DNA of 58,493 nucleotides, the filler included, from Sanchytrium tribonematis (lineage: Eukaryota), in the NCBI GenBank assembly GCA_018985235.1. It is 7 parts of 7 records of this genome, joined end to end, with 100 filler letters (N's around TTAATTAATTAA, not from the genome) between each part and the next. Parts side by side here need not be neighbours in the genome. Positions count along the whole stretch, not along the records: positions 33,668 to 41,901 come from JADGIG010000386.1; 6 more parts are not named here. One strand, 5' to 3'. The position numbers were made by a program, and so were the translations under genes. Positions 36,242-41,901 of the stretch are shown here, in pieces (the first letter of the stretch is position 1; every line of letters begins with the position of its first letter). The notes under the pieces are model-generated. The model was not told the DNA's origin and ran no database searches. It saw only the letters and a program-made list of their open reading frames with translations.

Positions 36242-37792
36242 TCATTCAAAGAAATTATCATCCACCAGTATATTTTTAAAGTCTAAAAAATCATTTTGAT
36301 TATGACAATCGATTGTCTTGCTTTTTAACCCATTGTAAAATTTGATTAAATCATTGAAAACATCATTTGTACCTTCTTCAGTATCTGCGTTACTAGTTGT
36401 TAATTTTACCAAATCATTATTTCGAGATTTCCCTTCTTCAAATTCGAATGAAAAGATTCTGTTTCTACAAATATACCACAAATATGACAATCTTTGAATG
36501 CTGCGTGGAGAATACAGAATGCAATCCTCGTATTTATCAAGCATAGCATAAAATTTAAAATGGTCCACAGATGATACAGTAGCCCATTCTAACATCAATG
36601 GAACAATATCTTGACAATCTGAACCACATTTGACAATATCTTTAACATCATTCTTTTCGTCGAGCATTGACAATGATTTCAAATCTGTATTTGCATAATA
36701 TTTGGATGGCATTTCACCTATTTCAAAGCACCTTTTTTTATATGGATTGATACCCAGTTCATAGATTAATAAAGTATTAATAATAATATCAAGCACTTGT
36801 TCCTTTGATACTCCTTCAAAGTAAAGTTCATAATTGTCGGATCTTCTAATGATTTGAAAATCAGACACATCTTGATTAGGGAATTTTGATCGCAAAGCAT
36901 TCAATAACGCAATATCTAACAAGCGAAGATAAGCTTCTGCAACTTCATGAAAGATCAACGAGCCAGTTGGTAAACCGTGTAATCTACTTCCCTTACAATC
37001 CCCAATAGCTTTGTCAATCATTTCCATCCATATACCATGCTTTCGATTATCCCAATCCCGCTTGCCCATTTCTACAGAGGTCAATAACCATGTAAGAGTA
37101 TGTGAATATAGAGTACTGTAAAAGTTCTGAAGATCAAAGCACCAAACTCTATATCCATCAAACGCTTTGCGCTTCTCAGCCATCTTGTCGATAATTTGTA
37201 AACATTGACAAGGCATGTTTAGATAAGTTGGACTTTGATCAAAATGAATTGCGAATTGACCTGTTATCCACAAATGAGGCAATCTGGGGAATATAAATAC
37301 ATTTGGGTGGCGAGTTTCGTTTAATCGATGTGTCAAGGATTCTTTGTTTTGTTCAATCAACCCTTTTAAAGCAATTAGCTTCTTAAACCCCACAATGTAA
37401 GTAAACAATACTGAAGGCTTGTCTACAGGTCCTTTAAATAAAGGAAATGATGCATAAGTGTGCGACTTGGGAATGTAGTTAATCTTACTAGCATCAATTA
37501 GGTACTTCTTGATCTTAAAGCAACTTGGGAATAAATCAGGAAAGTAATTTTCTACATCTTCACATAACTCATTGCCACAAGCTTCATCGATTTTAAGTGA
37601 GATAAAGTAACCATCAAGTAAGTTTTCCACCGTTTGTTTTAAATATTGCGTTATATCAGTTTTTAAAAGATCAAGCGCTTTCTGTGCATTTTCAGGTTTA
37701 TCGATTCCATAATGAGTCCAATTAATACCGTCAACATATTCCGACCACTGTTCTGTAATAATAGAGTCCTTTCTTGGTAATCTCGACGACAT
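36242..37792 (-). CDS. Bacterial-type (Abi/UG/DRT-like) reverse-transcriptase homolog with altered catalytic motif
   Basis: RT3-like FDLQNFYSTLYSHTLTWLL, RT4-like HGLPTGSLIFHEVAEAYLRLLD, RT5 position IIRRSDNYELY (canonical RYxDDY) and RT6-like LGINPYK. First ATG at 37792 (the frame is open from 37882). No intron seen. Confidence 0.8.
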   Translation of the reverse strand: MSSRLPRKDSIITEQWSEYVDGINWTHYGIDKPENAQKALDLLKTDITQYLKQTVENLLDGYFISLKIDEACGNELCEDVENYFPDLFPSCFKIKKYLIDASKINYIPKSHTYASFPLFKGPVDKPSVLFTYIVGFKKLIALKGLIEQNKESLTHRLNETRHPNVFIFPRLPHLWITGQFAIHFDQSPTYLNMPCQCLQIIDKMAEKRKAFDGYRVWCFDLQNFYSTLYSHTLTWLLTSVEMGKRDWDNRKHGIWMEMIDKAIGDCKGSRLHGLPTGSLIFHEVAEAYLRLLDIALLNALRSKFPNQDVSDFQIIRRSDNYELYFEGVSKEQVLDIIINTLLIYELGINPYKKRCFEIGEMPSKYYANTDLKSLSMLDEKNDVKDIVKCGSDCQDIVPLMLEWATVSSVDHFKFYAMLDKYEDCILYSPRSIQRLSYLWYICRNRIFSFEFEEGKSRNNDLVKLTTSNADTEEGTNDVFNDLIKFYNGLKSKTIDCHNQNDFLDFKNILVDDNFFE

Positions 37793-37871
37793 TTTTGAGG
37801 TTTCGAGGAATTTGCAAAGCGTGTCAAGAAAATTTAATGGATAACATTGGGCGACATGATTTACATTCAAG

Positions 37872-38106
37872 AAATCATACACGTGTACCTATCTTGAATA
37901 TACGGCTTGCTATCCATGGAAAGTTGATCAAAACAAGAAAATAAAGAAATGTATTAAAATGATAATTGTACCTGTAGCACAAAATCCTAAAATCATGCAC
38001 GTGTACCTATCTTGAATATACGGCTTGCTATCCATGGAAAGTTGATCAAAACAAGAAAATAAAGAAATGTATTAAAATGATAATTGTACCTGTAGCACAA
38101 AATCCT
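37872..38106 (+). repeat. Tandem direct repeat, period 118 bp, two copies (37872-37988, 37990-38106)
   Basis: 117 aligned bases with a single A/G mismatch (37879 vs 37997). Confidence 0.95.
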
Positions 38107-38122
38107 TATTTTTAATCATTTC

Positions 38123-38757: not shown

Positions 38758-39240
38758 ATGTCTGGCTTTGCAACTGTAACACTTATGGGTCGAGTAACAA
38801 AAGATGTGTCACCACGACAAGTGGATACTAGAAAAGGCGAAATGACTGTGCATGATTTGTCAATTGCAGTGAATAGTTTTGTAAGCGGTAAAGAAGTTGG
38901 TACGTTTTTTTCAAGTACAATCTGGCCTGGCCGATTTGATGGCATGCTGCCATTTTTAAAGAAAGGGAAAGCAGTTATTTTATCTGGTGATTTTTATATG
39001 GCTACTTTTCGAAGTGAAAGTGGTGCGTGGGAGTCACGATTAAATGTTGAGTTGAGCTCGCTAAAATTCACGTTAAGTGATTCCAAAAATTTGGTGTTAG
39101 CCCGTGAACGTGAACAAAAAAAAGAATCTGAAAAGAAGGAGGATGAACACCAAAAGATTTTAAATGAAATCTACGACTCTGATGATGAATCCGATCTTCA
39201 AGAAAGTACACCTGGATCTAAACGCCCGCGCACCGATTAA
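38758..39240 (+). CDS. ssb: Bacterial-type single-stranded DNA-binding protein (SSB OB fold) with acidic and NLS-like tail
   Basis: VTLMGRVTKD..R..V..LSIAVN..IW..FLKKGKAVILSGD..F...G follows the SSB consensus. There is no mitochondrial presequence and no DIPF tail; it ends GSKRPRTD. Confidence 0.85.
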   Translation: MSGFATVTLMGRVTKDVSPRQVDTRKGEMTVHDLSIAVNSFVSGKEVGTFFSSTIWPGRFDGMLPFLKKGKAVILSGDFYMATFRSESGAWESRLNVELSSLKFTLSDSKNLVLAREREQKKESEKKEDEHQKILNEIYDSDDESDLQESTPGSKRPRTD

Positions 39241-39274
39241 GCAATAAATATTTGATTTTTAATAATACGGTACT

Positions 39275-41901
39275 ATGAAACGTGTTTCTAAAAATTTAGA
39301 TATCAATGAAGAAGGTATATTTATAAGTAATTCGAACAATTTCACAAAAATAAACATACTACACAACTCCTCTAAGCGTGAATTATGCGAATTAATGGAT
39401 ATTGAATTCACTAATTTATCACAAGTAGAAAACTCGTCTGACTCTAGTTTTTACACTAAAGGCATCACTCTTAATAGTTCAACCAATCGTGAGCTATGTG
39501 AATTTATGGGAATCAACTTCGAAATGAACAACAATCTTGAAATCAATAAATCAACAGAATTAGAAATTTGTGAGTTTTTAGAAATAGAAACATCCAAAAC
39601 CCGAGATATACAATCTTATATAAATACCATTGATTCTAAATCAATAATAGATGTTCGAAAACCCTCAAAAACAGTGCCAATTCGTAATTTAAAGCAATAT
39701 TTAAACGCATCTGTTCAAAAATATGTTGAGAAAAATGGTTCTAAAATACGAAAACTGTTGAGAATGAATTTATATTCTCATAAGTGTTATAAATGCAGAT
39801 CAATGCGGAAAAGAAATCAATTAAAGTTTGAAGTGCATGAATCCCGTAAACAATTAGTCTGTAAAATGAACAAGCAAGGCACAATAGGATGCAATGATTT
39901 AAAAGTTGTAAACATTCCATCCGAAATTAAAGCGTTAACACCGACTGATATTCAAAAATTGCGTCTAGTTCGGGTATTTACAAAATTTAAAAGACCTAGT
40001 ACATGGCAATATCAACGATTTAAGAAATCCTTTGGTTTAAGTGTAAATCTAGAGGCTTGGAAAAATCTTTGCGGACTAACAAGTTATAATATGCCTTATT
40101 CTGTAGATCCGGACGGATCTCCATTAAGTGAAACAGCCACAATTGCGTTGAAATACCTTTCAAAATTTAATATCTATTATCATAATTTAAGTCCTGATCA
40201 TGATCTATTTAAAACTGTAGTTGAATACAACAAAAAAGGCCATCGTGTATTGTCAGATTTTCACGGCAACCTAACCCTTAAAGTGATTAATAATGGTGCT
40301 AATAAAACAGCTGGGATTGAGGATTTTGAATTTGATAGACTACCATTAGGTGAATTAAATTACGTGAACAAAACAAACTGTTCAGATGGTATAATTAATA
40401 CACCGGAAAGTCGCAGTACAAGATCAACATCTTGCTCCTCTATTAATGAGATTAAAGCCAATACAATATCCGATAATAAAACCAAATCAAAATTTAGATT
40501 CGATCCTATAGAAACAACAGAAAATACAAAACAGACAGCTGCAGCAATTGCAAAAGCTACCAAATTCAATAATAATTTAGAACCAATTCTGTTCTTTTTT
40601 TTATACCCAGACGGTGAAAATGGCATGAACAAAAACGAATCTAAGTATGTTAAAGAAGTCATGAAACGTCTGTTACACGAAGATGATCGATTTAGATCTT
40701 GCGCAGAATGGCAAGCATTTCATTTAGATTATTTGGAAAAGAGAAGATTGCAATTTCAACAGATAAAACTACCAAAAGATCAGAATTCCCAGATCACAAA
40801 ACAAATGTTACTTGTAGATTCAAACTATGATTCAAAAAAGTACAAAATTAACGAAGATTACAGTACTCCCATCCCAACCAATATCCGTGGTGGTTGTTCG
40901 TATTTTCTAGCAATTAGATGTAATCTTAAACAGTTTGTAAAAGATCGTGGACTACCACATTTGTTTCTTACTGTTTCAGTAGATGAATCTAATAATACTG
41001 ACTTGCACGAATATATAAATAATTTTCAAAATGTTAATTCTGATCTTGATATACCAATTCATATTCAAGCACCGTTCTTGTCAACTATTTACAATTATGA
41101 AAAGTTACAAAGTTTAATTACAAAGTATCTTAAGCAAACTGGTATAAATGGTATAAAAATGACTGACTATTTTTTTAGATTCGAATTTCAAAAACGCGGA
41201 AGTCCTCATATTCACGCTTTAATATGGCTAGATATAGAAAACAAAAATCAATTGCTTGATATGGTTTCTTGTGAAATCCCAAAAAATGACGATGAGCTAA
41301 ATATTCTTGTAAGAAAATATCAAATTCATTCGTGTACACATACTTATTGCAAAAAAGATACAAAAACTTGTCGATTTAACTACCCAAGGAAGCCTCATTT
41401 CAAAGAAAGCAAATTTATAAATCAAGAAAATCAATATGTATTGAAGCGTATGCCAAGCGAGGCATGCGTAGTACCTTATAATTCTGAATTATTGAAACTT
41501 GTACATAGCAATATGGATTTAGAAATTGTGACAACTGAATCATTTATTTGGTATTTAACTAAATACATAACAAAGGAAGAACCTGATGATCTCATATTGG
41601 ATCCTTCTGATATTAAACCAAAAACGATTATAAATGCCAGTGCGTTACGAATAAGACAAGATCCGTCCAACTTTAAAATAGAGCTAAAATCCATAGGTAA
41701 TTATCTTAGATCAAGAAACTATGGCATGCCGGAGATATTGTTTTATTTATGTTCACTTTCAATTACACAATTCTCACGTCGTGTAGTAAAAATTGGAGTT
41801 TCAAAACAGCTTATTAACAGCCGCTGCTACAAGTTCCCTAAAGAACTTTTAGATCTCGAAGACAGTTCAACAGATTTGTACCATACTAATACAATTGACA
41901 A
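39275..41901 (+). mobile_element. Helitron-like element RepHel protein (Helentron/Helitron2 type), HUH Rep domain; helicase part lost at contig end
   Basis: Motif 1 PHLFLTVS, motif 2 FFRFEFQKRGSPHIHALIW, Zn module QIHSCTHTYC..CRFNYP, VVPYN and motif 3 WYLTKYITKEE. The RGSPH form is typical of Helentron/HLE2. Confidence 0.9.

What the first reader, a model, noticed from the sequence alone, without database searches (positions are those of the whole stretch)
36242..41901. Candidate composite element: DRT-like RT / repeats and hairpin / SSB / HUH Rep, divergently arranged
Seen: three intronless nucleic-acid-handling genes in 5.7 kb. The RT is transcribed leftward, and SSB and Rep rightward 34 nt apart. 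They flank a non-coding stretch of about 960 bp holding a tandem repeat and a hairpin. Two of the three genes look bacterial in origin. Established: Helitron-like elements capture and carry accessory genes. Inference: either a rolling-circle transposon family that carries a prokaryotic RT and SSB as a unit, which I do not know to be described, or a Helentron that inserted next to an independently acquired RT. The single truncated copy cannot distinguish these.
Basis: inference. Interest (0 to 1): 0.8.

Follow-up and report, generated by a model that had tools for sequence, protein, structure and literature searches.

The report
Helitron beside a fungal DRT-derived gene
The three genes are not one mobile unit: a multi-copy rolling-circle transposon carrying a bacteria- or phage-type single-strand DNA-binding gene begins about 700 bases from a separate, likely decaying gene that belongs to a fungal family probably derived from bacterial anti-phage reverse transcriptases, with a changed active site.

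Summary
The genes, repeat and hairpin are real, but the composite RT+SSB+Rep element is not supported. Contigs of run X1 show three unrelated flanks joining at 38486-38493, a likely empty-site contig that leaves at 38490, and depth that jumps from about 97 to 392-556 there. The mobile unit starts at 38486-38491, holds SSB (PF00436) and a Helentron/Helitron2-type Rep, and is cut by a contig join at 41902. The RT, the 118-bp duplication and the hairpin lie outside it at single-locus depth. Two things remain of interest. (1) The transposon carries a bacterial/phage-type SSB where known HLE2 elements carry RPA or PF21473. (2) The RT belongs to a family related to class 1 UG/Abi (AbiK, Abi-P2, DRT4, DRT6). 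All 13 named members of its 23 tree rows come from two sanchytrid fungi. The family splits from canonical RTs at 100/96 support and has lost YxDD in every row (second Asp: N 17, T 5, Y 1). This copy appears frameshifted at its end, and a second version lacks its start. My searches found no report of such a family.

The parts
36242..37792 (-). [quoted passage not shown]
   Evidence: PADLOC AbiK E 3e-19; PDB AbiK E 2e-8; Foldseek top hits UG15, DRT4, DRT6, AbiK, Abi-P2; tree; contig depth about 96
36162..36206 (-). Out-of-frame remnant of the RT-like gene's C-terminus; homologues run about 60-80 aa further
   Evidence: tblastn of P0159 residues 351-365, 60% identity, other frame, E 3.1: weak alone, but in the expected place and order
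37683..38278 (.). 596-bp segment (RT start and first codons, duplication, hairpin) that is missing, with 15 filler letters, in a second version of the locus
   Evidence: joint 37682 to 38279 at depth 64.8, against about 40 for the window's version
37872..38106 (.). Recent tandem duplication, 2 x 118 nt, 99% identical; outside the transposon
38123..38152 (.). 11-bp perfect hairpin, 338 nt left of the transposon end; not part of other copies; role unexplained
38486..38491 (+). Left end of the multi-copy Helitron-like element; best placed at 38491 (starts TC, with T before it in 4 of 4 filled sites), 38486 (TCAG start) not excluded
   Evidence: three contigs with unrelated flanks enter at 38486, 38490 and 38493; one contig leaves at 38490; depth 96.7 to 392
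38758..39240 (+). SSB gene of the bacterial/phage family PF00436 with an acidic tail and a basic C-terminal cluster, inside the element, 267 nt from its left end
   Evidence: depth 212-408; one homologue at 45% identity
39275..41901 (+). HUH Rep part of a RepHel transposase with the Helentron/Helitron2 signature (FFR before motif 2, GSP; YLTKY tyrosines); helicase and right end not in the window
   Evidence: depth 209-519, other copies with frameshifting indels
41902..42001 (.). Artificial contig join; DNA beyond it is another contig
33668..35665 (.). Host context on the same contig: U1 snRNP C zinc-finger gene (34134-34337, +) and a Na+/H+ antiporter gene (34385-35665, -)
   Evidence: Pfam zf-U1 E 2.7e-16; best NCBIfam model TIGR00844 E 2.7e-69, under its cut-off

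Best explanation
A multi-copy Helitron2/Helentron-type element that starts at 38486-38491 and contains an SSB gene and a Rep gene lies about 700 bp upstream of a separate, single-locus RT-like gene, and it most likely inserted there by chance. The element is predicted to move by rolling-circle transposition: Rep nicks the left end, a helicase (not in the window) peels off one strand, and the SSB would coat that strand, the role proposed for RPA in other Helitrons. The RT-like gene is a host gene, one paralogue of a family that sanchytrid fungi most likely acquired once from a bacterial class 1 UG/Abi defence RT, expanded before Amoeboradix and Sanchytrium split, and still turn over by gene birth and death. 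The family keeps the RT fold and the first Asp of the catalytic pair but has lost the Tyr and the second Asp, so it most likely acts as a nucleotide- or nucleic-acid-binding pseudo-polymerase (about 55%), less likely as an altered template-independent polymerase (about 35%). This copy is likely a recent pseudogene. Shown: boundaries, copy state, motifs, tree split. Inferred: transposition mechanism, SSB role, direction of transfer, family function.
For: Boundary: 3 of the 5 loose-end rows among 20 contigs enter within 8 nt (38486, 38490, 38493) with unrelated flanks of 255 nt or more; a fourth carries this locus's flank to 38490 and then leaves; depth 96.7 becomes 392-556. RT body depth 96 against host genes 116-175 and SSB/Rep 209-519; none of the 6 joints listed links the DNA left of the RT to the element. 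Start TC with T before and A after matches FoHeli1/2 (PMC5148889 passages). Rep has both Helentron-group diagnostic sites (PMC4067079 passage). RT family: 4 hits at E 1e-30 or better among 281; 23 family rows against 33 canonical rows split at 100/96; 13 of the 23 carry a name, 9 from Amoeboradix and 4 from Sanchytrium; cross-species pairs P0013/P0025 and P0020/P0080 are starred. Decay: frameshifted tail, 5' deletion in the second version. DRT4 needs Asp149, Asp240 and Asp241 for metal binding and stacks product on Tyr238 (PMC12783706 passages); the last Asp and the Tyr are the positions changed (alignment).
Against: All junction and depth data come from one run, probably the window's own source, as contigs; the tool warns that depth is no copy number, and only 8 of 147 and 8 of 21 contig pieces were shown. 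The 'empty' contig could instead be an internal deletion that starts a few bases inside the element. The right end, helicase and terminal inverted repeats are not in the window; DUF6570, a marker of HLE2, was not found at E up to 10. The tree has no root and long branches, and 9 of 23 family rows are unnamed ENA proteins. 6 of 13 differences between the two RT versions are synonymous against 20% expected (P 0.03), so the gene was constrained until recently. Asn is kept in 17 of 23 rows, which is more constraint than a dead site needs. No host mitochondrial SSB was available, so a mitochondrial origin of the SSB is not excluded.
Confidence: 0.88

Rival explanations
1. RT, SSB and Rep form one rolling-circle transposon; the copies that start at 38491 are shorter derivatives using an inner left end.
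For: Divergent, compact layout; some FoHelis have several 5' termini; a short multi-copy repeat lies left of the RT at about 35830-35905 (9 contigs, depth 840 at 35869) and could be read as an outer end.
Against: RT at single-locus depth; three foreign flanks and a departing contig at one point; no joint between the 35850 repeat and the element; the repeat shares only a 17-of-20 AT-rich match with the element's first 267 nt; RT relatives form an old multigene family at 20-77% identity.
Confidence: 0.05
2. The RT family is itself a mobile or formerly mobile element of sanchytrids, and the locus is a nest of two unrelated mobile elements.
For: Many paralogues (9 named in one species, two on one contig: P0020 and P0159); this copy is decaying; flanks are polymorphic, with deletions at 35821-35949, 36121-36179 and 37683-38278.
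Against: No near-identical second copy (depth about 96); cross-species orthologous pairs; active site changed in 23 of 23 rows; no integrase or nuclease domain seen (Pfam blank for P0158).
Confidence: 0.12
3. The RT is bacterial contamination or a chimeric join in the assembly.
For: Published sanchytrid assemblies were whole-genome amplified and heavily contaminated before cleaning (PMC8371127 passages).
Against: Same contig as a U1-C gene; overlapping contigs run from the antiporter gene towards the RT at similar depth; GC3 0.30 against host 0.28-0.37; family members in two species; no relative found in pattern scans of prokaryote genomes, viral or metagenome contigs.
Confidence: 0.03
4. The SSB is a captured copy of the host's mitochondrial SSB that lost its targeting peptide, so no prokaryotic transfer into the transposon is needed.
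For: Mitochondrial SSBs belong to the same family (recalled); Helitrons capture host genes; no prokaryotic hit exceeds 36% identity.
Against: Best models and look-alikes are bacterial or phage (PRK06293 E 1.6e-17; top Atlas clusters bacterial/phage). The lack of mitochondrial hits in PDB is uninformative: a true bacterial SSB found none named so either.
Confidence: 0.3

Closest known systems
Fungal Helitron2 elements FoHeli1/FoHeli2 (Fusarium oxysporum; PMC5148889) and the HLE2 group (PMC11417382, PMC4067079)
   Same: Rep motif-2 signature (F/Y-x-R and GSP); 5' TC; T before and A after the insertion point; multi-copy with no sign of a duplicated target; a ssDNA-binding gene upstream of RepHel
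   Different: The cargo is PF00436 (bacterial/phage-type SSB), not RPA or PF21473; PF00436 has 0 occurrences in the HELIANO supplement. DUF6570 not detected; 5' hairpin not significant (z -0.25); right end unseen
Class 1 UG/Abi reverse transcriptases: Abi-P2, DRT6, DRT4 (UG15), AbiK (PMC9226505, PMC12783706)
   Same: RT core and size; family profile hits Abi-P2 E 5e-30, DRT4/UG15 E 6e-23, AbiK E 5e-17; predicted helical C-terminal region like the alpha-repeat domain; motif A Asp kept in 16 of 22 rows that cover it
   Different: Nuclear genes of a fungus, multi-copy; YxDD replaced by xxD(N/T/Y) in 23 of 23 rows; a starred subclade of 6 has also lost the motif A Asp; far under the NCBIfam Drt4 cut-off (34.9 against 450)
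rvt genes of fungi and other eukaryotes (recalled, no call)
   Same: Non-mobile cellular RT-like genes in fungi, reported to be protein-primed polymerases
   Different: Recalled as a separate RT lineage with an intact YxDD, mostly single-copy; not among the hits here and not tested

Membership tests
   Other copies join at 38486-38493 with unrelated flanks; RT single-locus
HLE2 (Helitron2/Helentron) | HUH Rep with Helentron-group diagnostic sites (F/Y-x-R before motif 2; S between G and P) | tested here: met
   FFRFEFQKRGSPHIH at residue 633, YLTKY at 760; criteria from PMC4067079
HLE2 (Helitron2/Helentron) | Interspersed copies with a discrete left end | tested here: met
HLE2 (Helitron2/Helentron) | Insertion at T|T (typical HLE2) or T|A (FoHeli1/2) | tested here: inconclusive
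   T before the end in 4 of 4 filled sites; A after in the single likely empty site; end may lie up to 5 nt further left
HLE2 (Helitron2/Helentron) | Asymmetric terminal inverted repeats and 3' hairpin | not testable with these tools
   Right end is beyond the contig join; no genome held
HLE2 (Helitron2/Helentron) | Pif1 helicase fused to Rep; AP endonuclease for Helentrons proper | not testable with these tools
   ORF cut at 41901
HLE2 (Helitron2/Helentron) | DUF6570 domain | tested here: not met
   No PF20209 match at E up to 10; it appears in 2 of the 5 Atlas look-alike rows shown
Class 1 UG/Abi RT (AbiK, Abi-P2, DRT4, DRT6) | RT domain related to this class by sequence and fold | tested here: met
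Class 1 UG/Abi RT (AbiK, Abi-P2, DRT4, DRT6) | C-terminal alpha-helical repeat domain | tested here: inconclusive
   Six helices at 392-474 in the model, residues 478-546 under pLDDT 50
Class 1 UG/Abi RT (AbiK, Abi-P2, DRT4, DRT6) | Catalytic YxDD | tested here: not met
   RSDN here; no second Asp in 23 of 23 family rows
Class 1 UG/Abi RT (AbiK, Abi-P2, DRT4, DRT6) | Priming tyrosine and template-independent DNA synthesis | not tested
   Position differs among AbiK, Abi-P2, AbiA and DRT4; needs biochemistry
Class 1 UG/Abi RT (AbiK, Abi-P2, DRT4, DRT6) | Prokaryotic gene in a defence context | tested here: not met
   On a contig with a U1-C gene and a Helitron
SSB family PF00436 | Score above the Pfam gathering cut-off | tested here: met
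   32.1 against 26 bits; 29 of 30 Atlas hits PF00436
SSB family PF00436 | Bacterial/phage rather than mitochondrial branch | tested here: inconclusive
   no N-terminal presequence, the fold starts at residue 4-6

The most novel reading that the evidence does not exclude
Sanchytrid fungi domesticated a bacterial abortive-infection/DRT polymerase and expanded it into a fast-evolving family of at least nine paralogues in one species, a eukaryotic branch of UG/Abi enzymes. With the first Asp invariant and Asn fixed beside it, part of the family is still an active nucleotidyl-transferase or nucleic-acid sensor used in defence, perhaps against ssDNA/SSB intermediates of elements such as this SSB-carrying Helitron, in the way DRT4 is triggered by a phage SSB.
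Probability: 0.25. Interest if true: 0.85.

Novelty: new variant of a known kind. Interest (0 to 1): 0.58.

Why it matters
The trio is a chance neighbourhood, which removes the headline claim. The RT family matters more. UG/Abi RTs are treated as prokaryotic, and the main survey removed eukaryotic sequences before analysis (PMC9226505 methods passage). A vertically kept, expanded fungal family with a fixed change of the catalytic motif would add a case of a bacterial defence protein adopted by a eukaryote, and full-length members (for example P0153, 598 aa) can be assayed directly against DRT4 and AbiK. The SSB adds a third kind of ssDNA-binding cargo to Helitrons, after RPA and PF21473, which supports the idea that these elements gain from their own strand-coating protein. 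Not found in print: searches; the library lacks most subscription papers.

Tried and rejected
No genome held for the window, so copies could be seen only through contigs of run X1. No RNA holder listed. Rep homologue search: none of 3506 candidates at E 0.001. Pattern scans for related loci found nothing: SSB in viral contigs, RT in metagenome (65), viral (99) and prokaryote genome contigs (104), Rep in viral contigs (84); the one SSB hit in metagenome contigs (L001) lies in an unrelated bacterial 442-aa ORF and is a false positive. These scans need short exact patterns and are weak. The family-profile search returned only 4 proteins among 7999 scored candidates, so the family's range outside sanchytrids is untested. 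The SSB model was too poor to search (mean pLDDT 52.7). Rfam: 1 match under its gathering score in 35650-39300, no ncRNA. The PDB test for mitochondrial origin failed its control. Rejected: hairpin as the element's end (338 nt outside); tandem repeat as assembly artefact (doubled depth); GTG start at 37882 (homology starts at 37792). No complex prediction was run, as no binding is claimed. Look-ups in earlier findings by place, by RT and SSB sequence and by RT words were blank.
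Full report
Setting. The window is seven contigs joined by an artificial linker; the finding lies on the contig 33668-41901. Other genes in the window (Chs7, chitin-binding GH16, RNA polymerase largest subunit, HECT, DOCK) show a compact, intron-poor fungal genome at about 33% GC. The same contig carries a U1 snRNP C gene and a Na+/H+ antiporter, so it is nuclear. No whole genome is held. The closest named relative of the RT is from Amoeboradix gromovi (77% over 58% of the query), so the host is most likely a sanchytrid; this is inference.

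Observation. The three ORFs, the 34-nt gap, the 965-nt spacer, the 2 x 118-nt duplication and the 11-bp hairpin are all there. The RT most likely starts at 37792 (516 aa). The Rep runs open into the contig join.

Is it one unit? One public run, X1, holds the stretch; it is probably the window's source and so not independent, but it shows the other copies. Over 33700-41901, 139 contigs were laid: depth is 116-175 over the host genes, 96 over the RT body, and 209-519 from 38358 to the end, with many diverged and frameshifted copies of Rep. At finer scale (20 contigs) depth is 96.7 at 38442-38485 and 392-556 at 38486-38573. Five loose ends were listed. Three contigs enter at 38486, 38490 and 38493 with different flanks of 255 nt or more. 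One contig carries this locus's flank to 38490 and then continues into unrelated DNA, as an empty site would. The fifth leaves inside the SSB at 38791. Read together, the filled sites have T before TCCC in 4 of 4 and CAGT in 3 of 4, and the departing contig reads CAGT then A. The left end is therefore 38491, or up to 5 nt further left if CAGT belongs to the element; in that case the departing contig could be an internal deletion. Either way the RT, duplication and hairpin are outside, and SSB and Rep are inside. The tool warns that contig depth is no copy number; the argument rests on the junctions.

The transposon. Rep matches Helitron_like_N, Helraiser and Helitron clusters in the Atlas (0.95). 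It has both sites that separate Helentron-group from canonical Reps (PMC4067079, passages). A TC start between T and A is what FoHeli1/2 show (PMC5148889, passages). DUF6570 was not found; helicase, right end and inverted repeats cannot be seen. The SSB passes the PF00436 cut-off, its best NCBIfam model is bacterial, 29 of 30 Atlas hits are PF00436 clusters with the top three bacterial or phage, and phage and plasmid hits are 25-36% identical. One unnamed homologue is 45% identical. Both listed differences in other SSB copies are synonymous (2 of 2). HELIANO lists RPA and PF21473 as ssDNA-binding cargo, with RPA upstream of RepHel in HLE2 (PMC11417382, passages and section 22; preprint passages); PF00436 does not occur in its supplement. 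The likely role is to coat the displaced strand. A mitochondrial origin is not excluded: my PDB test failed its control.

The RT. Profiles and folds point to class 1 UG/Abi enzymes: AbiK, UG15/DRT4, DRT6, Abi-P2 (model pLDDT 65.7). A search of 1.84 billion representatives gave 281 hits, 150 listed. Of 154 aligned rows, 128 keep the DD pair and 26 were flagged; one flagged row did not cover the motif and one (P0086) groups with canonical RTs. For the careful tree I dropped two near-duplicates and a fragment, added P0159, and took every fourth canonical row: 23 family rows and 33 canonical rows are the two sides of one branch, 100/96 (FastTree with 70 canonical rows gave the same split at 0.65). 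The tree is unrooted and has long branches. Thirteen of the 23 rows carry a name: 9 Amoeboradix, 4 Sanchytrium; 9 are unnamed ENA proteins; one is the query. Of 7 canonical rows looked up, 3 name an organism, all bacteria. Starred cross-species pairs show that the family diversified before the two genera split. The first Asp of the pair is invariant; the second is N in 17, T in 5 and Y in 1. Motif A Asp is kept in 16 of 22 rows and lost in one starred subclade of 6. In DRT4 the matching Tyr238 and Asp241 contact product and metal, and the double Asp mutant is dead (PMC12783706, passages; alignment). A pseudo-polymerase is the likelier reading. An active enzyme is not excluded: Asn is conserved, and a GDN motif is active in some viral RNA polymerases (recalled).

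This copy. Homologues run on for 60-80 aa past the window's stop, and a 15-residue match resumes in another frame at 36206-36162, so the end is likely frameshifted. A second version of the locus (depth about 65 against 40) lacks 37683-38278, including the start codon. The two versions differ at 13 listed sites in the RT, 6 of them synonymous against 20% expected (P 0.03), which suggests that constraint was lost only recently.

Literature. The UG/Abi survey removed eukaryotic sequences (PMC9226505, passages). The sanchytrid genome paper has no occurrence of reverse transcriptase, transpos-, horizontal or HGT in its main text (PMC8371127, passages); I did not look at its supplements, which may bear on this. 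A review of defence homologues in eukaryotes showed no such family in the 12 of 13 passages seen (PMC13276650). DRT4 is triggered by a phage SSB (10.64898/2026.10.21.760695, abstract only); this is a lead for the novel case and not evidence of a link here. Searches showed no report of either finding; I saw these as listings.

Verdict. Observation confirmed; composite element refuted; chance adjacency about 0.88. What remains is a new cargo variant of HLE2 and an apparently undescribed sanchytrid family derived from UG/Abi RTs. Interest 0.58.

Noticed in passing
window 35821-35949: A 129-bp segment missing in one version of the locus holds a short multi-copy repeat (about 35830-35905; 9 contigs, depth 840 at 35869) whose other copies run on into a similar unit; possibly a small dispersed or tandem repeat family.
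   Followed up: partly
window 38486-38490: CAGT directly precedes the element in 3 of 4 filled sites and lies 3 nt further left in the fourth: either a target preference or part of the terminus, as in the TCAG start of FoHeli1/2.
   Followed up: partly
window 39380-39590: The Rep N-terminus has three copies of a short motif (ELCELMDI, ELCEFMGI, EICEFLEI at residues 36, 73, 97), followed by a Cys-rich stretch.
   Followed up: no
window 39241-39274: The 34-nt SSB-Rep spacer holds AATAAA right after the SSB stop and varies by indels in another copy; how Rep is expressed so close behind SSB is unexplained.
   Followed up: no
window 38123-38152: The perfect hairpin upstream of the RT is more than chance (1 of 200 shuffles) but belongs neither to the Helitron nor to both versions of the locus; it may be the remnant of another element.
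   Followed up: partly
L002 5314-5619: The best phage match of the SSB (E 1e-7, 27.5%) is in an unannotated 5.8-kb phage scaffold; too distant to name a donor.
   Followed up: partly
window 6747-7754 and 14867-15421: An RNase H gene (PF00075) and a DUF7869 fragment on other contigs of the window; either may be mobile-element derived.
   Followed up: no
proteins P0020 and P0159: Two distant members of the RT family lie on one Amoeboradix contig (NODE_11, p9 and p13), so paralogues may cluster.
   Followed up: no
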